Shown here: piece by piece, positions 8,052 to 51,810 of the stretch
Layout: each line of letters starts with the position of its first letter
How positions within the stretch are numbered: the first letter of the stretch is position 1
Notes under the pieces: generated by a model
Database searches by the model: none
What the model was told of the DNA's origin: nothing
The model's input: only the letters and a program-made list of their open reading frames with translations
Made by a program: the position numbers and the translations under genes
Source of the DNA: Octopus vulgaris
Lineage: Eukaryota
DNA length: 64,000 nucleotides
NCBI GenBank assembly: GCA_951406725.2
Contig: OX597819.1
Location: forward strand, 72,168,001-72,232,000
Direction of reading: 5' to 3'

Positions 8052-9318
8052 TTGGGTTGACAACCAAGTTCCCACCGTTTTCTTTTTTAATTTAAATTTT
8101 TTAAAAGGTTTAATAAAAAAGAATAACAACTAATTAATCAATAATGTATTCACCCTTGTTGTTTACAACTTCTTCCCAACGTTCAACAAGATTTTCAATA
8201 CCTCGTTGGTAGAAATCACCCGATTTCGACTCGAAAAATTGATCCAACCAAGCTCTCAATTATGCATCAGTATTGAACGAAACTCCGTGCATAGCATTTG
8301 AAAAAGATCGAAGGAGGAAGAAATCTGTTGGTGCAAAATCAGGAGAGTACAGCGGGTGTGGCAACACTTCCCAGCCATGCGTTTGAATGGCTTCCTTGGT
8401 CATATTGAGGGCGGGTGTTGTCGTGCAGCAGAACTCCATGCTGCCGATTAGGTCTTTTCTCTTGAATAGCCATGTTGAGTCGTTCCGTCTGTTGAACATA
8501 GAGCTCTGCGTTGACCGTTTGGTTCCGTTCAAGCAATTCGTAATGGATAATCCCTTCCCAGTCCCACCATACGCACAACATCGTTTTACGCGGATGAAGA
8601 TCTTGTTCCACGCGCGGTGTCGCTTGTTTACCGGGGCTAAGCCATTCCTTACGCTGCTTCATATTGATGTACAGGCATCATTTTTCGTCGCCAGTAACGA
8701 TTCGGTAAAGAAATCGTTGCTTGTTTCCATTAGTTGAGCGTTGACGAGCCAGCAAACCAGCGGAGATTGTGGCTCGTTGATTTCTGTTGTTGTCACTTAA
8801 AACATGCGGAACACATGCTCCATATTTCTGAACCTTTCCCATCGAGTGAAGATGCTTCCCTGTAGCAGTGTGGGAGCATTCCATTTTCTCTACCAGTTTC
8901 CTTGTCGTTTGACGAGAATTTTCGGTCAAAAGTTGGTTTAATTGCTCTTCATCGAACTCAACTGGACGGCCAGAACGAGGTGCGTCTTTGAAGTCAAAAT
9001 TTCCATTTTTGAACTTGGCATACCAATCAAGAGCGGTTCTTTCAGCTATGGCACTCTTTCCATACACAGCGCAAATGTTGCGAGCAGCTTGATTAAAAGC
9101 AAAAAGAAGAAGGTGTCGAAAATGCTCGTTTTTCTTAACTTGACATTTTAATGATCTGAAAATAAACAAAAATTAACTAAAATTAATTAGAAAACAAAAC
9201 AAAATAGATTCCAAAATGATTCAAAAATAGAATTCTCGAAAAAAGTAGATTCCAAAATTTAAAAACGCAATAAATTCCAAAATATAAAAAAACCGTGGGA
9301 ACTTAGTTGCCAACCCAA
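8052..9318 (-). mobile_element. Full-length mariner (DD34D) transposon with frameshifted transposase
   Basis: TIRs TTGGGTTGACAACCAAGTTCCCACCG / CGTGGGAACTTAGTTGCCAACCCAA with TA flanks; motifs EHFRHLLLF, IVTGDEK, LLHDNTRP, PHPLYSPDFAPTDF spread over three frames. Confidence 0.95.
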
Positions 9319-13802: not shown

Positions 13803-13865
13803 AATAATAATAATAACATTGAAAAATACCTTAGGAATGAGAACCCAAGTTCGAAATTTCCCCAA

Positions 13866-13911
13866 GACACCTGATGAAGGCTGGAAAGTATATCAGCCGA
13901 AACGTTGTGTT
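13866..13911 (+). ncRNA. Minimal type I hammerhead ribozyme
   Basis: GACAC-CTGATGA-A-GGCTG(GAAAGTATAT)CAGCC-GAAA-CG-TT-GTGTT: stem I, intact core, 5-bp stem II, ACGT palindromic stem III, GUU cleavage triplet. Confidence 0.8.
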
Positions 13912-19110: not shown

Positions 19111-19210
19111 TTTGTGAAATTTGACTTAGTATTTCTAAATTGAATTTTTCCCTGTAAGTTTGGAATAATATTCCCTCATATTATCATTATATATATATAT
19201 ATATATATAT

Positions 19211-19976
19211 ATTCACATGAGTGATGACGCGACCTTTCATGTACATGTTGCTAAACTGGCAATGAAATGTAGACGGCTGGCCGGATGGATTCTTAGAACC
19301 TTTAGAACAAGAGAACAAGAAACCATGATGGTCCTCTGGAAGACACTTGTCCTAAGCCACTTTGACTATTGCTCTCAGCTATGGTCACCATCCAGTGTCA
19401 AGTTGATCACAGAACTTGAGGCGATCCAACGAAGCTACACGAAGAAGATAGCCTCTGTGCAGCATATAAGCTACTGGGAAAGACTCAAGAGATTAAAACT
19501 CTACTCCTTGGAGCGTAGGCGAGAAAGATATGCCATAATATATATCTGGAAGATCCTGGAAGGACTTGTCCCAAGCTTTGGCATCGAGAGTCACACAAAT
19601 GCCAGAACCGGGCGCCACTGCGTGGTACCAAGGACTCCAAATTTGCCATCAAGATGTAGGACAAGATACTGTGATAGCCTGGGCTTCAGAGGCCCACAGC
19701 TCTTCAATATCCTCCCGAAGAACCTGAGGGACCTGCATGGTGTAGATGCGGATGTCTTTAAAGTAGGACTGGATCTCTTCCTGTCAGGTGTCCCGGATGA
19801 ACCAACTTCACGGCAGGAGGTGCAGATGAAGGCAGCTGCATCGAACTCTCTCATGCACCAAATGGCAGTTGCTAAAAAGCATTCGTGAGGTAAAATCATG
19901 TAGCAAACCAAATGGCGGTGCCCCAGCATGGCCACAACTCATGAGCTGAAACTGGAAAAATCAAAATCAAATCAAA

Positions 19977-24564: not shown

Positions 24565-25583
24565 TAACTTAGAATAACTTAGAAAGATTTTGGCCAGTAT
24601 TGGCCCAGGCCATGTCTAACTTAATAGCACCACCTGGCGAAGTCTTTCAGTTCAGGATTTGGGCACCAAGGCCCATTCGAGCAGAGAGTTATTGTTTGCG
24701 GAGACATATCCGGGTGTGGGTGGTTTGTCCGGTACTGTTTGAAGGAATTTGTCCAAAGACTTCTTGAATTTTGTGTGGTCAGTTTCTTTTTTGACGTGTC
24801 CTGGTGTAATGTTGAAGAGAGCGGGTCCAATTGAGGTGAAATAGTTGTGCCGTATTGTCGTTATGTGATGCGATTTAGATTTTTTGTTGTGGACGGATGG
24901 CACGTGGTCCAAGCCTTGGATGTATTTTGAAGGTGATGCCAACATCATTCGGACAGTGCTGATGGAATATTTTCCACATCATACAGATAATGTAGCGTTC
25001 ACGGCGTCGTTGGAGTGAATACAATTTCAGCTTCTCTAGTCTACCCCAGTAGTCAAGGTCCGACATGCCATCTATCTTTTTTGTGATTGACCTTTGGGGA
25101 GCTTCAATTCTCATAATATTTTGTTTTGTGTAGGGAGACCACAGTGGACAGCAGTATTCAAGGTGGGGTTGGGCAAAAGTGGAGAAGAGAAGGATAATAG
25201 TGTGGGAATCTCTCGACTGAAAGGTTCTGAGAATCCAGGAACACATTCTGCGGGCCATGTCAACTTTGCTGCTTATATGTGTAGCCCAGCTTATGTTGTT
25301 GTCCACTGTTACTCCCAAGTCTCTGATGTTGTTGGATGCCATGAGAATTTCTCCAGAAGGAAGAGAGCATGGGAGTTTCAGAGCGTCCTCCCTTCCAAAG
25401 TGGATCAGTTCGAATTTGTCTTCATTTAGCAACATGTTATTCTTTTCCGCCCATTGGACAACAGCAAGTAAGTCTGACTGAAGGTTTATTCGGTCATCCA
25501 CGCCATTGATGACCTTCTGGAGCTTGGAATCATCAGCGAAGGTTCTGATGTTACTGTATTTGATGGTGTCAGTAATATCATTT
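24565..25583 (-). mobile_element. 5'-truncated CR1/L2-group LINE (second family)
   Basis: FADDSKL RT motif at ~25525-25545, PHLEYCCPLWSP, LYSLQRRRERY; (TCTAAGTTAT) tail; flanked by (TA)n. Confidence 0.9.
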
Positions 25584-25589
25584 AAATAA

Positions 25590-25637
<48 letters not shown>

Positions 25638-25646
25638 TGTATATAA

Positions 25647-25771
25647 GAGACCGATAGAATAAGTACTGGGCTTACAAAGAATAAGTTCCGGGGTTGATTT
25701 GCTCGACTAAAGGCGGTGCTCCAGCATGGCCGCAGTCAAATGACTGAAACAAGTAAAAGAGTAAAAGAGAG
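25647..25771 (+). mobile_element. CORE-type SINE 3' fragment
   Basis: GATAGAATAAGTACT...GGCGGTGCTCCAGCATGGCCGCAGTCAAATGACTGAAAC. Confidence 0.9.
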
Positions 25772-27504: not shown

Positions 27505-28418
27505 GCTAGGGCACCGCCATTTGGTGTTGCTACATGATTTTACTTCACGAATGCTTTTTAGCAATTGCCATTTAGTGCATGAGAGAGTTCGATGCAGCTG
27601 CCCTCATTTGCACCTCCTGCCGTGAAGTTGGTTCAATTGGGACACCTGACAGGAAGAGATCCAGCTTTATTTTAAAGACATCTGCATCCACCCTATGCAG
27701 GTCTCTCAGGTTCTTCGAGAAGATATTGAAGAGCTGTGAGCCTCTGAAGCCCAGGCTATCACAGCATCTTGTCCTACATCTTGATGGCGAATTTGTAGTC
27801 CTTGGCACTATGCAGTGGCGCCCAGCTCTAGTATTTGTGTAACTCTCGATGCCAAAGTTTGGGACACGTCCTTCCAGGATCTTCCAGATGTATATTATGG
27901 CATATCTCTCTCGCCTGCGCTCTAAGGAATAGAGTCTTAATCTCTTGAGTCTTTTCCAGTAGCTTATATGCTGCACAGAGGCTATCTTCTTCGTGTAGCT
28001 TCGTTGGATCGCCTCAAGTTCTGTGATTAACTTGACATTGGATGGTGACCATAGCTGAGAGCAATAGTCAAAGTGGCTAAAGACAAGTGTCTTCCAGAGG
28101 ACCATCATGGTTTCGTTGTCTCTTGTTCTAAAGGTTCTAAGAATCTATCCGGTCAGCCACCTACATTTCATTGCCAATTTAGCAACATGAACATGAAAAG
28201 TTGCATCATCACTCATGTAAATACCGAGGTCTCGCACTGATTGTGCCTCTGGGATTGCAATCCCTCCAGGTCCAGTGTATTTATTGGGTATTGCATTTAG
28301 TTTTGCATGCTGATAGCATAAAGCTTAAAACATTTCAGCATTGAACTGCATACTATTCTTTTCAGCCCACTTGTATATTTTGTCCAGCTCACATTGCAGG
28401 TGCATAGTGTCTTACAAG
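27505..28418 (-). mobile_element. CR1/L2-group LINE, same family as 19211-19980
   Basis: MMVLWKTLVFSHFDYCSQLWSP... nearly identical peptide; 3' tail clipped. Confidence 0.9.
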
Positions 28419-34956: not shown

Positions 34957-35140
34957 CACCTGTGAATTGTTGGCGATTTTCTTCCTCCGTCTTACCCTTT
35001 TTTTTTTGCACTTTCCTCTATTTCTGAAGAAGAGCTTTGCTCGAAACGTAAAGTCCTCTTTCTTTCCTTTCCTGAGCGTCAGATAATACAGTACTTGTAC
35101 CACACCCTTTTCTTGTTTGTTCTTCTTTGTATTCACTATA
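34955..35140 (+). mobile_element. Isolated PLE-type terminal repeat between (TA)n tracts
   Basis: Contains HHR 35020-35054; downstream TTCCTGAGCGT...TAATACA resembles 29209-29231. Confidence 0.65.
35020..35054 (+). ncRNA. Minimal type I hammerhead ribozyme
   Basis: ATTT-CTGAAGA-A-GAGC(TTT)GCTC-GAAA-CG-TA-AAGT; intact core, GUA triplet. Confidence 0.75.
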
Positions 35141-38574: not shown

Positions 38575-41098
38575 TCATGTCATCCAATCAGTTCTGTCCA
38601 ATTTTACCTTTTTATTTAGATTTGAATGAAATTTAATAGTATTTTCAAATGTCTAATTCAATTAAAAATTATTTTTATGCATTTGTGTACATTTAAACTA
38701 ATTCAATATTGTTTTACAAAATAATAGAGGGTGTCCACAAAGTCTGCGTACGTGGGGATTAACACATACTTTTAAAACAAAACAAAATTATTTTATTATA
38801 ATGTTAATAAATAATATTTTCAAAGTGATTTCCATCATTTCCAATGCATAACTTGATTCGCCTTGCAAAATTCAGGTGAACTTGATTAAATAAGTCTACA
38901 TTGCCATCAATTTCAGCACACTGACTGGTAATGCGTTCTCTCAGGTGTTTTAAATCTGTAATCTTTATTATAATCTTTCCCTTTCAACATACTCCAGAAA
39001 AAGAAATCAAGGGGAGAAAGGTCTGGTGAACGAGGGGACCTTTCCATATGAGTCCTTCTTCCAATCCAGTGAGGAAAAATGTCATTAAGCCCATCCTGCT
39101 GAAATCAATTCGGAAGGTCCCCGCCTAGGCGCTCAATTTGAGATATTAATTTGTCTCTCAATATGTTTACATATGTCTCATCCGTTACATGTTCAATGAA
39201 GAAGGGTCCTAGAACATGAGCTTTCCACAAACCACACCACACCATCACCTTTTTGCTGCCTTGCTGCTTGGATGGATCCATCCAATGTGGATTACCTTGA
39301 GACCAGTATAGAAGATTCTGTCTGTTGACCTCACCATTTACATAAAACGTAGCTTTGTCACTGAACAACACAAAGTTTTTCGTAAAATTGATATTTTCAT
39401 CCAATTTATCTGAAAACAATTCGCACGTCTACATTCGTCTATCAGGGTCGTCTTCATTTAAGTGATGCAATATCTGTAGGTTGTATCGATGAAACTTTTC
39501 CTCAACCAGCATTTTGTGGATGGTTGGTTTTGGAACACCTAACACCGTGGATGTCCGACGAAGTGATTTCTTTGGGCTAGCAGAAAATTTAGCCATGACA
39601 GCCTCTTTCGTTTCATCTGAAGTCTTTGGTCGCCCAGAACGGGGTTTATCCAAAACACTGCCTGTTTCTTTAAATTTCTTGATCAATTTCCCGACGGCAG
39701 TAAAAAAAATAGGTTGCCTACAAGGGTGTCGAAGATTAAATTCTGCAATTTTGCGATAAGACCATCTCTCTCGTCCACTTAATAATACTAACTCGATTCT
39801 TTCTTCTTTAGGCAGATCCATCATTCGATCTGGGATTCTTTCTTCTTTAGACAGAGCCATCATTCTATCATCTGTAGGAAAAATAACAAATAAATTCAGA
39901 AAAGTAAAGTATTTGTTTTTATTTAATTTAAACAAAAGTAAAAAAGGAAAATTATTATTTCTTATATTTGTTTATGTTATGATTTTATTCCATGTACCCA
40001 GACTTCGTGGACACCCTAAAATTGCTTTGATTAAAACCCTTTCAACATGGAAGTATCCAAGGAGCATTTAAGGCACATATAATTCTTTATGAGTACAATA
40101 AAGGTAACTCTGCAGCCGAGGTGACTCGAAACATACACTCAGTTTATGAGAAAGTGCTTGAATGAAAGAACTTGCAGGAGATCGTTTTCAAAATTGAAGA
40201 TGAAGATCGAATAGGACGTCCAGTTGAGTTTGATGATAAGCTCCTTGAGGCATTACTTGAAGAAAATCCGTCATTATCAGTTGAAGAATTGGCAATAAAG
40301 CTTACTTCAAACAATACAACAGTTCATCGTCATCTTCAACAACGTGGAAATATTCCTAAACTTGGAAAATGGGTGCCTCATGAATTGCCCGAAAGCAACC
40401 GCAAATCCCGAGTTGACATCTACTCTTCTCTCCATTCTCGCAAACTCATTTCACCCTTTTTCGATAGACTTGTGACGAAAAATGGATTTTCTATCGAAAT
40501 GTTAAACGTCGTAAACAGTGGCTTGGTAAAAGGGAAAATGCTCAACCACAACCGAGAAGGGAACTTCATGGGGAAAAGGTTCTACTCTATCTGGTGCGAT
40601 TGCAAAGGCGTAATTCATTTCATATTGTTACCACCTAATGCAACAATCAATGCTCAAGTCTACTGTCAGCAATTAGAGCGTTTGAACCAAGCTTTGAAGG
40701 AAAAAAGATCCGCTTTAGTGAGTCGAAAACGAGTGATGTTTCATCAGAACAATGCACAACCCCACACTGCAAAGATCACATTACAGAAGATCGAAGAGGT
40801 CGGTTTGGAAACATTTCTTCATCCAACTTATTCTCCCGACCTTACTCCTTCAGGATATCATTTGTTTCATAGTTTACAGAATTATTAGGGGGACTTAACT
40901 TTCGCAAGTCAGGAGGAGGTCGAAGCTTTGAAACCAAAAGAGTTTTACATTGATGGGATTAAAAAGCTTGTAAATAGATGGAAGTAAGTCATAGATAATC
41001 AGGGTAAGTACATTGATGATTAACTTTCAATTAAATATAACATTCGATCACTTGGATTCTTTATCCAAAATTCGAACAGAACTTATGGGATGACCTGA
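38575..41098 (+). mobile_element. mariner transposon, interrupted at 38727-40017
   Basis: TIRs TCATGTCATCCAATCAGTTCTG / CAGAACTTATGGGATGACCTGA; transposase MEVSKEHLRH...WVPHEL...HQNNAQPH...YSPDLTPSGYHLF at ~40047-41020. Confidence 0.88.
38727..40017 (-). mobile_element. Tc1/mariner-superfamily element (DD37D/maT-like) nested in the mariner
   Basis: TIRs AGGGTGTCCACAAAGTCTG / CAGACTTCGTGGACACCCT; motifs FKETGSVLDKPRSGRP, FSDKATFYVNGEVNRQN, PRSPDLSPLDFFFW. Confidence 0.88.
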
Positions 41099-42784: not shown

Positions 42785-45520
42785 GCAACATGAATGGTAT
42801 TGGCAACATGAATGACAATGGCCAGAGACTACTTGAATGTTGCACATACCATAACCAGTGCATCACTAACACATTCTTTGCCAACAAGACATCCCTCAAG
42901 GCATCTTGGAGACATCCAAGATCTCACTACTGGCATCAGCTGGATCTCATCATTACACGAAGACCCTTTCTGAATTCTGTTCAACTGACTCGTAGTTACC
43001 ACAGCGCGGATTGTGAAACAGATCATTCACTAATAAGAAGCAGGGTGAGGATTCTGACTAAAAAGTCCATCACTCCAAAAAATGGGCCGACCACGCATTA
43101 ACACTGCCAGAACCTCCGACCCTACACTGCGACAATGTTTTACTGTTTCTATCAAAGTTGCCCTCAGTAGCTGCCCAACCACCTCTGCTGAAAGTAGGTG
43201 GAATTATACCAGGGAAGCTTTGTATACCACATCAATAGATACTTTCGGCATGAGAGAAAAGTAAAACCCAGATTTTGTTCAGTGCTGGGCTCTCAGAGCT
43301 GGAAACAGTTATCGAAACAAAGCGTGCAGCTCTTACGTAATACAAGAGTGATTCTTCTATAAAGTCACTCGAAGAACTCAGAAAGGCAAGAAATAAAACC
43401 CAACTGACTGCCAGACGCTGTGCAAATAGGTATTGGCAGGAAATCTGTCAGAGTATCCAGTCAGCTACTGACAGTGGCGACACTCGTGGGGTGTATGCCG
43501 GTTTGAAGAAGGCCCTCGGTTCATCTGCAGCCAAGTCAGCCCCCCTGAAATCAACTACTGGTCTCATCAAGGACCAAAGCAAGCAAATGGATAGTTGGGT
43601 GGAGTACTACCAGGATCTCTACTCACGAGAGACCACGGTAGCTGAGGCTGCAATCGAGGGTGTCAAGATCTTACCAGTCATGTGTGAACTTGACAGTCTG
43701 CCATCTATAGCAGAGCTCACCAAGGCTATTGACTCCCTAGCAAGTAACAAGGCTCCGGGAAAAGACGGCATCCCCTTAGAGATCATCAAAACCGGCAAAA
43801 ACACCATCCTGCTTCGGCACATTCATGAGCTTCTGTGTCAGTGCTGGGAAGAGGGTACAGTCCCTCAGGATATGTGGGATGCTAACATCATTACGCTTTA
43901 CAAAAACAAAGGTGACCGTGGTGATTGTAACAATTACCGTGGAATATCTCTTCTAAGCACTGTTGGAAAAGCCTCTGCTCGCATTATCCTGTCCAGGCTG
44001 CAACTGCTTGCTTCTCGAATTTATCCAGAATCGCAGTGTGGCTTTAGAAGATGCAGATCAACTATTGACATGATTTTTCCATACGCCAACTTTAGGAGAA
44101 GTCCAGAGAGCAGAAAATGCCATTATATATGGCCTTCATTGATCTGACAAAGGCCTTTGACTTGGTAAGTAGAAAAGGCCTCTTCATCCTGCTCCAAAAA
44201 ATTGGATGTCCACCAATGCTGCTGAGGATCATCACATCTTTCCATGACGATATGCAAGGCACCATACAGCACAATGGTTCAACATCAGCCGTCTTCCAAA
44301 TAAAAAATAGTGTAAAGCAAGATTGTGTCCTTGCTCCTACATTATTTGGCACCTTCTTCTCGCTGCTGCTGTCACATGCCTTTGTGACATCAGATGATGG
44401 AGTGTTTCTGCACAGTAGAAGTGATGGGAAACTGTTCAATCTCTCGCATCTGCGTGCCATGACTAAACTCAGAAGCGTCCTGATCAAGGAGATGCTATTT
44501 GCTTATGATGCCGCACTGGTATCACACACAGAAGAAGCCCTACAAAGGCTCATCAAATGTTTTGAGCAAGCATGTGGCAACTTTGGCTTATTTATCAGCC
44601 TCAAGAAGACCAACATCATGGGTCAGGCTACATCGACCATCCCAAACATACATTTTGGAGACCACAGACTACAGGAGGTGGAGAAGTTTACCTATCTTCG
44701 CTCTACTGTCACCTACAACCTATCCCTTGATACTGAGCTCAATATACGCATTGGCAAGGCAGCTGCTATGATGGCCCAACTCTCCAAACGGGCATGGGAC
44801 AACAATAAGCTGATCAAGACCACAAAAATGAAGATTTACCAGGCATGTGTACTTAGCACTCTACTGTATGGAAGTGAGACTTGGACGCCATACACACGCC
44901 ATACGACGCCATACGTCGCCTAAATATCTTTCACCTGTGCTGCCTCCGGAAAATCCTTCGCATCAAATGGCAGAATCATGTCACCAACAAAGATGTCCTC
45001 ACGCAAGCAGGAATACCAAACATGTTTACACTCCTCACACAAAGACGTATGAGATGGCTTCGACATGTTAGCCGTATGGAAGATGGCAGAATCCCCAAGG
45101 ACATACTCAACGGAGAGCTTGCTAGGGGCACTAGGACTGCGGGAAGACCGTCCTTACGATACAAGGATGTTTGCAAAAGGGACATGAATGCCTACAACAT
45201 CAATATTACCAACTGGGAAGCAGTTGCCAGCAACCGTGGAGATTGGCGACGTACCGTAAAAGAGGGAACACAAAGGAGTGATATAGAGGGAGAGGATAAA
45301 TGGAAAGACAAGAAAAGACGTCAACACGAAAGTATGACATTACAACCAGCCAGGCAGTCTTCGCTACATTTGCGGCACCTGCCAGAGGGAGTGTTTGTCC
45401 AGGATAGGACTACACAGCCACAGCAGGAGATGTATTAGGACATGAAATGTAAAAGCCGGACTAGATTATTTTATGCGCAACTCCATTGTCTCCCGAGACA
45501 AAAAGGATACCAACAACAAT
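42785..45520 (+). mobile_element. RTE-clade LINE, 5'-truncated (APE C-terminus, RT, C2H2), frameshifted
   Basis: SWRHPRSHYWHQLDLII, ADCETDHSL, NNYRGISLLS, FIDLTKAFD, KQDCVLAPTLF, LFAYDAAL; (CAA)n tail; ~70-bp flanking direct repeats. Confidence 0.95.
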
Positions 45521-46987: not shown

Positions 46988-47022
<35 letters not shown>

Positions 47023-47095
47023 GTATATATATATATATATATTAAAAAACAAGTAAAAAATAGAAAATGCTAAAATAATTTTATAGTGAACATTT

Positions 47096-47133
47096 CAGTA
47101 CCGGTTTCGGTCATTTTGAGACCTTTTCAACTG
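47096..47133 (-). ncRNA. Minimal hammerhead motif, U3-A8 core variant, at the PLE 3' end
   Basis: Minus strand: CAG-TTGAAAA-GGTC(TCAAAAT)GACC-GAAA-CCGG-TA-CTG. Confidence 0.7.
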
Positions 47134-47484
47134 TAACGATTAAATAATTAAATTTAGAAAAATTAGAAGAAAAGTTTTTTTAAAAGAATATTTCTATAGT
47201 AGTGTTCAGATTTAAGTGGCATTCTGCTTTTCTCTGACTCCCTTGTTTGCACTTGTGTGTTCGAGGTAGTTGTGAGTTCTTGGTAGGGTAGTAGAGGGAA
47301 GGCTGGTGAGGAAAGGGGGTGGGAGAATCTGGGAGTGCCCTGATGGTCGTATTTTGAATGGTCAGTGGCGGCTGGCAGTCTCAGTTCAATTCAGGAGAAT
47401 ATTTATATTGACAGGCTTGTTTATAGAATTAGCGTAGGTGTTATACTAAAAAACATTAGTGACAAACTTAAGGGGTAGGGGGTG

Positions 47485-47780
47485 GAGAAGAAGAAGAAGA
47501 AGAAGAAGAAGAAGAAGAAGAAGAAGAAGAAGGAGAAGGAGAAGATGATGGTGATGGTGGTGATGATTATGACGACGATGATGATGATAACGATGATGAT
47601 GAAGAAGAAGAAGAAGAAGAAGAAGAAGAAGAAGAAGAAGAAGAAGAAGAAGAAGAAGAAGAAGAAGAAGAAGAAGAAGAAGGAGGAGAAGAAGAAGATG
47701 GTGGTGATGATGGTGGTGATGATGATGACGCCGATGATGATGATAACGATGATGATGAAGAAGAAGAAGAAGAAAAAAAC
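47485..47780. repeat. (GAA)n/(GAT)n microsatellite with a higher-order duplication in the PLE 3' UTR
   Basis: Directly visible. Confidence 0.93.
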
Positions 47781-47904
47781 AGAGAAGGGAGAATATGAAT
47801 GGGTGTAAATATAGCTATGAAGGGGCTGATTAGTAATGGATTCTATGGAGTGTAGTATTTGTGTGTGTATATATTTTTTTCTTTTATTCTAAAGTTGAGG
47901 TATA

Positions 47905-48375
47905 TTAATTGTTTGTCGTAGACCCGTTAAGAAGTGGCTTGTATTTTGTAATAAAGAGATTTTCTTTACTTATTCTTTGTCTCGAGGTTGTATCGTCCCT
48001 AAATTGGTAGAGGGGGAAAATTCTGAAGTTTGGTGTTTTTTTGTTGGCGCAAGTATCTATGTGTTGGCTAAAAGCTATTTTTCTGTTTTGGGGAATTTTT
48101 ATCTGGGATCTGTGCAGGGCCATTCGTTTACGCAAACCATTTTTTGTTTGGCCTATGTACTGCTCTTGACACCCGGAGCAGGTTAGTGAGTATATTAGGT
48201 TCTCCGAAGCACATGTGAAGTTGCTTTTCACTGTAAACCGTTGTCCCTGTTTGAAGGAGAACTCAGAACCCTCGATTAGATAGTCGCATATCCCGCAATT
48301 GGGTCTTCCACATTTTTTTACTGTCGGCTTCTGTGTTGAAGAGTGAATTCGGGCTTGTGTAAGGAGACTTTTCAT
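47905..48375 (-). CDS. PLE GIY-YIG endonuclease domain (frameshifted from the RT)
   Basis: CGRPNCGIC linker; NLIYSLTCSGCQEQYIGQT...RMALHRS...KENLFITKYKPLLN. Confidence 0.88.
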   Translation of the reverse strand: MKSLLTQARIHSSTQKPTVKKCGRPNCGICDYLIEGSEFSFKQGQRFTVKSNFTCASENLIYSLTCSGCQEQYIGQTKNGLRKRMALHRSQIKIPQNRKIAFSQHIDTCANKKTPNFRIFPLYQFRDDTTSRQRISKENLFITKYKPLLNGSTTNN

Positions 48376-48379
48376 GGAT

Positions 48380-49769
48380 CTAGGCTGTCTTTTGCTTTTT
48401 TATGATCGTGTGTGTTTGGAGGATTGTGTTCATTCTGTGGTCTTTTTTTAGGAGGAGTATGTTGTGGAGGATGGTGTCGAAGGCTTCGTTATTGAGAGGG
48501 TTGTGTGTGGAGATGTATGGTAAGGCTTTTGGTTGTAAGTTTTTCTTTGATTTGGGATGTCTCAGTTCCTTGATGTTAAGTTGAAGGGCACGTTGAATGC
48601 ACTTGTCAATAAGTGAAGGTGGATAGTTCCTGGTGATTAGGGTATCTTTTAGTTCTTGTAGTCGTGTGTCTCTGGTGTTTGCGTTAGAGACTATAGTGCA
48701 TATCCTTTTTGCTAGATTGAAGGGGATATTCATCCTGGTGTGTCTGGGGTGGCATGAATTGAATGGAAGATATTGCTTAGAGTCTGTAGGCTTATAGTAT
48801 ATGTCTGTTTCTATTATATTATTAGCTTTCTTAATGAGGATATCGAGGAAGGGGAGTTGTTGTTGGCTATATTCCATCGTGAATTGGATGTTTACGTCCA
48901 GTCCGTTTAAAATTTTCTGGAATTCTATGAGTTTTTCTATATTTTTATGCCAAAGGATGAAACAGTCATCTAGATATCTCTTCCAGTTGTTTTCTATGTA
49001 GATGGAGAAAGGGCTGCCATATCTTTCTAGAACCTTACGATACAGACTGATCTCTAGGTATCCTATGACTAGGTTGGCAAAGGAGGGGGCCATTCGTGTA
49101 CCCATCGCAGTCCCCGATTTTTGTCGGTAGAAGTCATTGAAGGCGAAGAAGTTATTTTCCAGGATGAATTTAACCCCTTCTATCACAAATTCTTTTTTGA
49201 TGCGGTGTGGTAGTTCGTTGGCGTGATTCTCTAGCCAGAATTGGATTGCCTCTAGTCCTAGGTTGTGGGGGATATTGGAGTAGAGGTTGACTACATCGAA
49301 GGATACCAGTATGGTGTTTTTGTTTATAGTATTCGGTAGGTGATTGAGCATATCTAAGTCGTCCCTTATATAGCTTTTGACATGTTTGAGGAGTGGTTTT
49401 AACAGGGTGTCTAAAAAGTTACTGAGGCGGTGGGTTTCGCATGCGGGACCTGCTATTATGGGTCTCAATTTGAGGTCATTAGGATTAGGGACTTTAATTA
49501 TTTTGTCTGTAGCTATCTTGCATGCGTTGCTTATTTTTTCACTTTTGTGGATCTTAGGTATACCGTAGAATTGGCTAGTTTTACTTGTGAAATTGGTCAT
49601 ATAATCATATTCTTTGTCGGTGAGCCCTGCTTTGTATGGGTTTAATATGGATTTTAGTTCCCTCATTATTTTTTGTTGACTGTAGTTTTGTGCCTTTTCA
49701 TAGTATGTTGTGTCTTCCAGCATAGAAAGTACCAAAGTTATGTAAAATGTCGTATCCATTAAGACAACA

Positions 49770-49771
<2 letters not shown>
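48380..49771 (-). CDS. PLE reverse transcriptase; the ORF-track N-terminal (YI)n is microsatellite
   Basis: [66 protein letters not shown]; ~460 codons without a stop. Confidence 0.92.
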
Positions 49772-49810
<39 letters not shown>

Positions 49811-49813
49811 AAG

Positions 49814-49907
<94 letters not shown>

Positions 49908-50074: not shown

Positions 50075-50382
50075 TATAATGAATGAGGGAAACGGAACAT
50101 GGAGTTAAAAAGAATTGTTATTGAACACAACGATCGTTTCGACCCTTCTTGCATCTGTCCCTTACGGGTGGGATATTGTACAGCTAGTTGTGACCACAAC
50201 ATGCCAAGCGACACTCAGTATATGTAGCGAATATCTTATTTAAAACGAGACACTGATGGATGCAACTCAACTAGTTGTACAATATCTCATCTGTAAGGGA
50301 CAGATGCAGGTGGGTCGAAATGTTCGTTGTGTTGAATAGAGATTCTTGCAAACTCCATTTTCTGTTTCTCTCATTCATTATA
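50075..50382. repeat. Diverged foldback carrying a hammerhead 3'-half motif
   Basis: Arms ~50075-50192 and ~50266-50382; the left arm minus strand reads GGGTC-GAAA-CGATCG-TT-GTGTT. Confidence 0.75.
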
Positions 50383-50528: not shown

Positions 50529-51810
50529 CAGGGGTTGGACAAAATAATGGAAACATCTTAAAATTTCAAACAAATTTATTTTAATATGGAGTAGGACCCC
50601 CTTTGGCAGTAATTAGAACTTCAATTCTACGAGGTATGGACTCGTACAAAGTTAGAACTATTTCCAAAGGAATTTTTGTCCATTCTTCAGCTAAAACAGT
50701 CTCCAGTTCTTGTAGTGATGATGGTGAAGGATATCGACTCCTTACTTGTTTTTCTAAAATGCACCATAAATGTTCAATAATATTGAGATCTGAGGACTGT
50801 GGTGGTCAGATAATATGTTCAACTTCACTAGAATGTTCCTTGTGCCATTCAGAAACAACTTTGGCTGTGTGAATTTGTGCATTATCATCCTGAAAGTTTG
50901 CGTTTCCCTCTGGAAACAGTTCCGCAACCATAAGATAAATGTGATCAGATAAAATGCTTAAGTAGTCTCGACTATTAATTCTGCCATGAAGGGAAACTAT
51001 TGGGCCGGCGGATTTCCAAACTATAACCCCCACCACCACCACCAGACAATCACAGATCCTCCTCCATGTTTAACAGTTAGAAGAAGGCAGTCCTGGTCAA
51101 AATGCTTCTTTCGGCTGTCTCCACACGTATACTCGGTTGGTGGTCGGAAATAAGGTAAAGGATGACTCGTCCGCGAAAATAACATTCTTCCACTGCTATG
51201 GGGCCAATTATGTATATTTTTGCTCCACTCTAAACGCTTTGAAACGTTTGTTTTTGAAAGTAGTGGTTTTCTGATTGTAGCCCTCCCGTGAAATCCGGCT
51301 TTGTGCAGCACCCGGCGAACAGTTTTTGTGGAAACTGTGTTCTCGAGGTGGTCATTAAGCTCTGCAGTAATTTTGGGAGCAGTGCTTTCGTGATTCTTTC
51401 TAACAATACGCGTAAGAGTCCTATGGTCCCTATCTGAAAGTTTTGGTTTTGTTCCGGAGTTTTGTTTCAACGAGGCAGTTTTTCCCTCTTTCTCAAAGGC
51501 TGTCATTTCTTTCGAGACAGTACTTCTTGATACACCAAACATTTCGGCCGTTTTCATTACGCTAGCGCCTGCCATACAAGCAGCAACAATTTGACCTCTT
51601 TGAAAGTCCGATAGATCTGTCATTTTAATGAATTTTAATTTCCTTTTTCTGATGATATCTGAAAAGTAACATCAATTTTAGCAAAACATATTAAGCAACA
51701 GTAATAATAAATTAAAAAAACATTAAAATAAACAAGCTTTTGACGGTTTTATAGATATTTCAAAATTATGATGCTATGATGCTAGGTGCTTCCATTATTT
51801 TGTTCAACCC

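What the first reader, a model, noticed from the sequence alone, without database searches (positions are those of the whole stretch)
47096..47133. Compensatory U3-A8 hammerhead core at the 3' end of a young Neptune-type PLE
Seen: the core reads UUGAAAA instead of CUGANGA, while stems I and II, GAAA, the ACCGGT palindrome and the GUA triplet are intact. Known: positions 3 and 8 form a Watson-Crick tertiary pair, so C3G8 to U3A8 preserves pairing. Inference: this is a selected variant rather than decay, and standard CUGANGA searches would miss it.
Basis: partly seen in the sequence, partly recalled or inferred. Interest (0 to 1): 0.7.

Follow-up and report, generated by a model that had tools for sequence, protein, structure and literature searches.

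The report
Known U3-A8 hammerhead in Penelope retrotransposon
The end of this abundant jumping gene carries a small RNA motif predicted to cut itself; its swapped core pair (U-A instead of C-G) is shared by almost all copies of the family, but the same swap is already published for such elements, so this is an ordinary example whose cutting is untested.

Summary
Observation confirmed; novelty low. The minus strand at 47133-47096 is a minimal type I hammerhead with a UUGAAAA core, 3-bp stem I, 4-bp stem II, ACCGGU palindrome and GUA triplet. It sits in the pLTR of a 5'-truncated, frameshifted, young RT/GIY-YIG Penelope-like element with a Neptune/Nematis-type linker.

U3-A8 is the family state: 1824 of 1833 exact-pattern copies carry it and 1 carries C3-G8. 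An older subfamily has it too (863 matches) and differs only by a compensated stem II pair and a loop indel.

U3-A8 in PLE hammerheads is in print (PMC4209133, about 1,300 Schistosoma hits; PMC3088659). This scan noted it before in this genome (e1-10117311) and in others.

Cleavage is untested. U3 can also pair with A17, which likely damps activity. In 44 of 46 loci reaching ORF1 the upstream hammerhead is uncut. A modest excess of copy starts just 3' of the cut site (16 vs 4) fits occasional cutting, but also RT stalling.

The parts
47096..47133 (-). Minimal type I hammerhead motif with U3-A8 core, no 9.1 bulge, palindromic stem/loop III, predicted cut between 47099 and 47098
   Evidence: family counts
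47124..47130 (-). Core heptamer UUGAAAA (U3 47130, A8 47125)
   Evidence: fixed in 1824 of 1833 copies
47109..47123 (-). Stem II (4 bp, G10.1-C11.1) and 7-nt loop; the older subfamily has A10.1-U11.1 and a 5-nt loop
47100..47105 (-). ACCGGU palindrome, predicted 6-bp intermolecular helix III in a dimer
   Evidence: duplex -8.3 kcal/mol; dimer MFE -27.1 vs -9.8 per monomer
47040..47904 (-). 3' UTR / pLTR with simple-repeat tract; this copy ends without the optional 34-nt tail
   Evidence: tail in 11 of 30 copies
47905..48399 (-). CX4CxxC linker and GIY-YIG endonuclease with CCHH, cut off from RT by a 1-nt insertion near 48402
   Evidence: (PF01541 E 4e-5)
48380..49772 (-). 5'-truncated reverse transcriptase, starting just after the DKG motif; 3-nt deletion near 49135
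   Evidence: (PF00078 E 1e-8)
46990..47042 (.). (TA)n target tract at the 3' end
   Evidence: TA follows the end in 30 of 30 copies
49773..49905 (.). (TA)n tract at the 5' truncation point

Best explanation
The motif is the minimal type I hammerhead carried in the terminal repeat of an abundant Penelope-like retrotransposon family, and U3-A8 is the inherited state of the whole family; it likely keeps the 3-8 tertiary pair and would cut only weakly, as a dimer or with help from the element's protein. Shown: sequence, fixation across copies and subfamilies, pLTR position, dead state of this copy. Inferred: the swap arose in an ancestor older than both subfamilies and persisted under selection on master elements, not on this copy. 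Inferred: two motifs (tandem pLTRs or two RNAs) pair through ACCGGU to build helix III. Inferred: U3 can pair with A17 and extend stem I, trapping part of the RNA in an inactive fold, so most templates are reverse-transcribed uncut and cutting is occasional.
For: 1824 of 1833 copies U3-A8; 3 C3-A8, 1 G3-A8, 1 C3-G8, 2 U3-G8, 2 U3-C8. Older subfamily: 863 U3-A8 matches, median 10% from its majority state versus 0% for young copies (30 each). Young versus old majority states differ at 4 of 38 hammerhead columns (one compensated stem II pair, one 2-nt loop indel) versus 39 of 171 flank columns. Clan-wide non-U3 and non-A8 copies are scattered single changes: 22 C3-A8, 40 U3-G8 and 2 C3-G8 of 101 (hand count); expected C3-G8 by chance 0.4-1.1. 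Contigs of 4 runs, labelled organisms A, B and C, list no other letter at positions 3 or 8. Neither position is in a CpG (sequence). Dimer fold is the swapped double hammerhead. U3-A17 closed -9.8 vs open core -7.5 kcal/mol, analogous to the presumed C3-G17 trap (PMC3884650 passages). Literature: U3-A8 in Cercyon PLEs; min-HHRs cut weakly and only as dimers; U3-A8 active in vitro and natural; a PLE hammerhead needs protein and is dispensable for insertion in vitro.
Against: No cleavage assay. None of 44 measured 5' boundaries of ORF1-reaching copies lies at the cut site; they scatter from -46 to beyond -1500. The core-conservation comparison is partly circular, because the older copies were found with a pattern fixing the core. 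In the young set 1 C3-G8 copy against 0.007 expected could hint at a minor lineage, though that copy is more diverged (88-94%). An unrelated old family shows C3-A8 mismatches in 11 of 23 matches, which questions how strictly the 3-8 pair is kept. The monomer fold is no more stable than shuffles.
Confidence: 0.75

Rival explanations
1. Catalytically dead relic: the fold is kept as a protein-binding or RT-positioning element of the pLTR, and U3-A8 (with the U3-A17 trap) was fixed because cutting is no longer needed.
For: Uncut upstream hammerhead in 44 of 46 ORF1-reaching loci; U3-A17 favoured by 2.3 kcal/mol; catalytic mutants do not affect PAc insertion in vitro; a C3-A8 mismatch is common in another family.
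Against: All catalytic core positions and the palindrome are unchanged between subfamilies whose flanks differ at 39 of 171 columns (with the ascertainment caveat); the 3-8 change is exactly the Watson-Crick-preserving double; modest excess of 5' starts just past the cut site.
Confidence: 0.17
2. Neutral hitch-hiking: two A/T-ward changes happened in one master element of an AT-rich genome and spread with its burst, without selection on the pair.
For: Both changes are G/C to A/T; all copies descend from few masters, so 1824 copies are not independent evidence; no C3-G8 sister lineage was found.
Against: The state spans two subfamilies of different age; stem II shows a separate compensated change; the same double change is reported in unrelated elements.
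Confidence: 0.07
3. Private decay of a CUGAAGA core in this copy.
For: One copy of 1833 reads C3-G8.
Against: 1824 of 1833 copies are U3-A8.
Confidence: 0.01

Closest known systems
U3-A8 minimal hammerheads of Cercyon PLEs in Schistosoma mansoni (Cervera and De la Pena 2014, PMC4209133; parts 1-2 of 4 read, supplement searched, file 1 not searchable)
   Same: Type I hammerhead in a pLTR, U3-A8 covariation, found only with a modified descriptor, mostly solitary or in opposite-strand pairs.
   Different: Here stem II is 4 bp with no unpaired 9.1 base and loop III keeps a CCGG palindrome (as the paper describes for Drosophila, rotifer, shrimp and mosquito motifs); U3-A8 copies are nearly uniform and outnumber CUGANGA motifs of this loop type.
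Natural U3-A8 hammerhead cores (Perreault et al. 2011, PMC3088659; passages)
   Same: Same 3-8 covariation, described as compensatory and already active in vitro.
   Different: The passages seen do not tie those examples to PLE pLTRs or to a dimer requirement.
Neptune (and Nematis) clade EN+ Penelope-like elements (Craig et al. 2021, PMC8557442; passages)
   Same: RT with C-terminal GIY-YIG, CX2-5CxxC linker, CCHH, DKG, partial tandems, inverted truncated copies, optional 30-40 nt tail, (TA)n targets, 3' hammerhead.
   Different: Long copies here have a separate 411-aa ORF1 overlapping RT-EN in the -1 frame (the Fig. 1 legend allows this as optional; the figure was not seen); clade not placed by tree.
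PAc Poseidon hammerhead of Anolis (Frangieh et al. 2024, PMC11167929; parts 1-2 of 4)
   Same: pLTR hammerhead upstream of internal RT start sites and tail; uncut RNA appears to be the main template.
   Different: C3-G8 core, Poseidon clade, hammerhead overlaps the ORF start.

Membership tests
Hammerhead ribozyme (type I) | Core N3-UGA-N-N8-A9 / GAAA / NUH with Watson-Crick 3-8 pair | tested here: met
   U3-A8, GAAA, GUA
Hammerhead ribozyme (type I) | Stems I and II closing the core | tested here: met
   3 bp (+4 bp extension) and 4 bp in the MFE fold; compensated 10.1-11.1 pair between subfamilies
Hammerhead ribozyme (type I) | Rfam gathering score | tested here: not met
   HH9 19.7 bits vs 52; the model is of a longer canonical form
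Hammerhead ribozyme (type I) | Site-specific self-cleavage after H17 | not testable with these tools
   Only an indirect genomic footprint, inconclusive
PLE minimal hammerhead | Located in pLTR; palindromic 15.2-16.2/loop III allowing dimers | tested here: met
PLE minimal hammerhead | Unpaired nucleotide between 9 and 10.1 | tested here: not met
   A9 is followed directly by G10.1; the paper lists it as a typical feature
EN+ Penelope-like element | RT plus C-terminal GIY-YIG with CCHH | tested here: met
   one 784-codon RT-EN frame in L066, L074, L077, L078, L079
EN+ Penelope-like element | Partial tandems, inverted truncated copies, optional tail | tested here: met
Neptune clade | CX2-5CxxC linker between RT and EN (shared with Nematis) | tested here: met
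   CX4CxxC before GIY-YIG; definition
Neptune clade | RT phylogeny grouping with Neptune rather than Nematis | not tested
   No clade-labelled references among the 120 listed homologues
Naiad / Hydra clades | N-terminal EN (Naiad); DKT, no CCHH, CxCX5C linker (Hydra) | tested here: not met
   EN is C-terminal; DKG and CCHH present

The most novel reading that the evidence does not exclude
The U3-A8/GUA combination is a self-damping ribozyme: U3 toggles between A8 (active) and A17 (inactive), so the element cuts only a small share of its RNA in the animal, and the excess of genomic copies starting within 11 nt after the cut site is a fossil record of that cutting.
Probability: 0.25. Interest if true: 0.45.

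Novelty: new member of a known kind. Interest (0 to 1): 0.2.

Why it matters
Little for ribozyme biology: the variant, its compensatory reading and the blind spot of CUGANGA searches are published. Practical value: in this genome most hammerheads of this loop type (about 2,700 U3-A8 matches against 171 CUGANGA) are missed by canonical descriptors, and Rfam scored this one far below its cut-off. The family is young and nearly uniform, so it is a clean test case for the open question of whether PLE hammerheads cut in vivo.

Tried and rejected
Whole-window Rfam scan: the top 150 of 265 matches were microsatellite-driven miRNA/snoRNA hits with no hammerhead; 115 were not shown. Repeat finder was swamped by microsatellites. 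C3-G8 sister lineage: not found. The two C3-G8 copies (C13, C5) look like isolated members of the young and old subfamilies; 71 of 171 matches were not listed. CpG decay as origin of U3-A8: rejected, neither base is in a CpG. Family B tree (printed before the script failed later on) did not separate C3 from U3 copies. Expression: no RNA holder listed; all runs are contigs with RNA status guessed, so no ends or levels. Stimulatory structure after the slippery site: none predicted (z +1.19). Papers not held: PMC1986816, PMC2271363, PMC5785218, PMC5850863, so kinetic costs of U3-A8 and the dimer data of Lunse et al. were not seen. Search hammerhead + Penelope + octopus (taxon taken from an earlier scan note, not tested) listed 4 of 5 papers; none shows this family's hammerhead in title or abstract start.

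Full report
1. Observation. On the minus strand, 47133-47096 forms a minimal type I hammerhead: 3-bp stem I, core UUGAAAA (U3 47130, A8 47125), 4-bp stem II with a 7-nt loop, GAAA, the palindrome ACCGGU and the triplet GUA. Stems I and II appear in the MFE fold; stem III does not, and the fold is no more stable than shuffles (z -1.07). The best Rfam match on 161 nt is Hammerhead_HH9 (19.7 bits, E 0.0095, gathering 52). A descriptor allowing any Watson-Crick 3-8 pair gave 4 hits in the window against 0-2 in each of 10 shuffles; this is the only non-C3-G8 hit.

2. The element. The motif ends 56 nt before the 3' end of an insertion spanning about 49772-47040 between (TA)n tracts. [quoted passage not shown] Against the long copy L066 it has 10 mismatches in 2699 aligned nt, a 3-nt deletion in RT, a 1-nt insertion near 48402 separating RT from EN, and 3' UTR indels. 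It lacks ORF1, the first 160 or so codons of the RT frame and the upstream pLTR. So it is young but dead, and any selection acted on master copies. Long copies form tandem units of about 4.4 kb and inverted pairs; 11 of 30 copies carry the optional tail and 30 of 30 end in TA. These match the EN+ PLE features in PMC8557442 (passages). The linker fits Neptune or Nematis; no tree was built.

3. Is U3-A8 fixed? With positions 3, 7 and 8 free, 1833 copies match (reversed control 0). Five are not U3 and four more are U3 without A8, leaving 1824 U3-A8 and 1 C3-G8. A looser pattern exposed an older subfamily with 863 U3-A8 matches. Clan-wide, the 48 non-U3 matches are 22 C3-A8, 13 A3-A8, 9 G3-A8, 2 C3-G8 and 2 G3-G8; the 53 U3 non-A8 matches are 40 G8, 8 U8 and 5 C8 (hand counts). 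Expected C3-G8 doubles under independent decay are 0.4-1.1 depending on the denominator; within the young exact-pattern set alone the expectation is 0.007 against 1 seen, and that copy is more diverged. Contigs from 4 runs labelled with three organism codes list no other letter at 3 or 8 (contigs drop rare variants).

4. Selection. Majority states of 30 young and 30 old copies differ at 4 of 38 hammerhead columns: G10.1-C11.1 against A-U, and a 2-nt loop indel. The flanks differ at 39 of 171 columns. The old copies were chosen by a pattern fixing the core and position 10.1, so only 11.1 (U in 24 of 30) and the inside of stem II are free tests. No C3-G8 ancestor was found, so the switch itself is not observed. 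A different, old family has A8 with C3 in 11 and U3 in 10 of 23 matches; its tree was unresolved. This weakens the idea that the pair is always strictly kept.

5. Mechanism. Two motifs fold as a swapped double hammerhead with a 6-bp ACCGGU helix (dimer -27.1 vs monomer -9.8 kcal/mol), as proposed for PLE motifs, which cut weakly and only as multimers (PMC4209133). With A at 17, U3 can pair with A17; this fold is 2.3 kcal/mol below the open core. That parallels the presumed C3-G17 trap (PMC3884650 passages) and predicts damped activity. In 44 of 46 loci reaching the ORF1 start the upstream hammerhead region is continuous and no boundary lies at the cut site (46 loci plus L066 cover the 49 matches). 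This agrees with uncut RNA being the main template (PMC11167929), but seamless template jumps would hide cutting.

6. Footprint test. Numbering U3 as +1, a cut product starts at +33. Two same-width patterns returned 36 and 28 matches. After removing point mutants and indels and merging duplicates by eye, 16 events start at +33 to +43 (3 exactly at +33), 4 at +20 to +30 (a fifth, L256, was dropped as an internal deletion), and 2 at +31/+32 are ambiguous. One-sided binomial p is 0.006 (16 vs 4) or 0.026 (16 vs 6). Caveats: one sequence variant only, no downstream control, TA microhomology at junctions, and RT would meet stem I in the same interval. The idea came from scan note e1-8612152. The result is suggestive only.

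7. Known systems. Cervera and De la Pena 2014 report U3-A8 instead of C3-G8 in Cercyon PLE hammerheads and about 1,300 hits with a matching descriptor. Perreault et al. 2011 report natural C3-G8 to U3-A8 covariation, already active in vitro. Four further relevant papers were not held, and supplement file 1 of PMC4209133 could not be searched; these may cover similar motifs. Other papers seen: PMC6765202, PMC7151607, PMC3846280, PMC6431247 and bioRxiv 10.64898/2026.07.22.740005 (passages only). Earlier scan notes reach the same reading in this genome and others; they are unchecked and are not counted as support.

8. Verdict. A real feature with a correct structural reading, a known variant, activity untested. 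New member of a known kind; interest 0.2.

Noticed in passing
L066:3654-3714 (minus); absent from the truncated window copy: Long copies have a 411-aa ORF1 overlapping the AUG-less start of the RT-EN frame in -1, with an in-frame U UUU UUA heptamer in 48 of 48 junction rows (some places fetched twice). No downstream structure predicted. ORF1 has 3 unnamed homologues and no significant Pfam hit. A likely programmed frameshift; noted before by this scan and allowed for in Craig et al. Fig. 1 legend.
   Followed up: partly
window 13865-13911 (+) and 35018-35074 (+): Two further minimal hammerhead-like motifs with canonical C3-G8 cores and an unpaired base after A9; likely ends of other PLE families.
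   Followed up: no
L140-L159 (family B): Old PLE-linked hammerhead family (endonuclease remnant beside L142) with A8 and position 3 split C/U (11 and 10 of 23 matches); a possible natural C3-A8 intermediate.
   Followed up: partly
L038-L044, L046-L061, L063-L065: Tandem repeats of about 359 bp with a canonical CUGACGA hammerhead, resembling non-LTR retrozymes.
   Followed up: no
window about 50120-50330: Long imperfect inverted repeat just upstream of the element (seen by eye); not identified.
   Followed up: no
L206, L212, L217, L218, L219, L225, L229, L235: Very short head-to-head fold-backs made only of the sequence 3' of the cut site, one arm with the tail and one without.
   Followed up: partly
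window 47080-47144 (-): The loop II CAAAA and a GUUA just 5' of stem I align with the same words in the Rfam HH9 consensus; a tertiary contact is possible, but stem I is shorter here.
   Followed up: no
window 19169-19888, 24875-25735, 27572-28144, 43341-45438; 8678-9172, 39429-39971, 40166-40888, 51021-51671: Fragments that look by eye like non-LTR reverse transcriptases and Tc1/mariner transposases (labels recalled, not searched).
   Followed up: no
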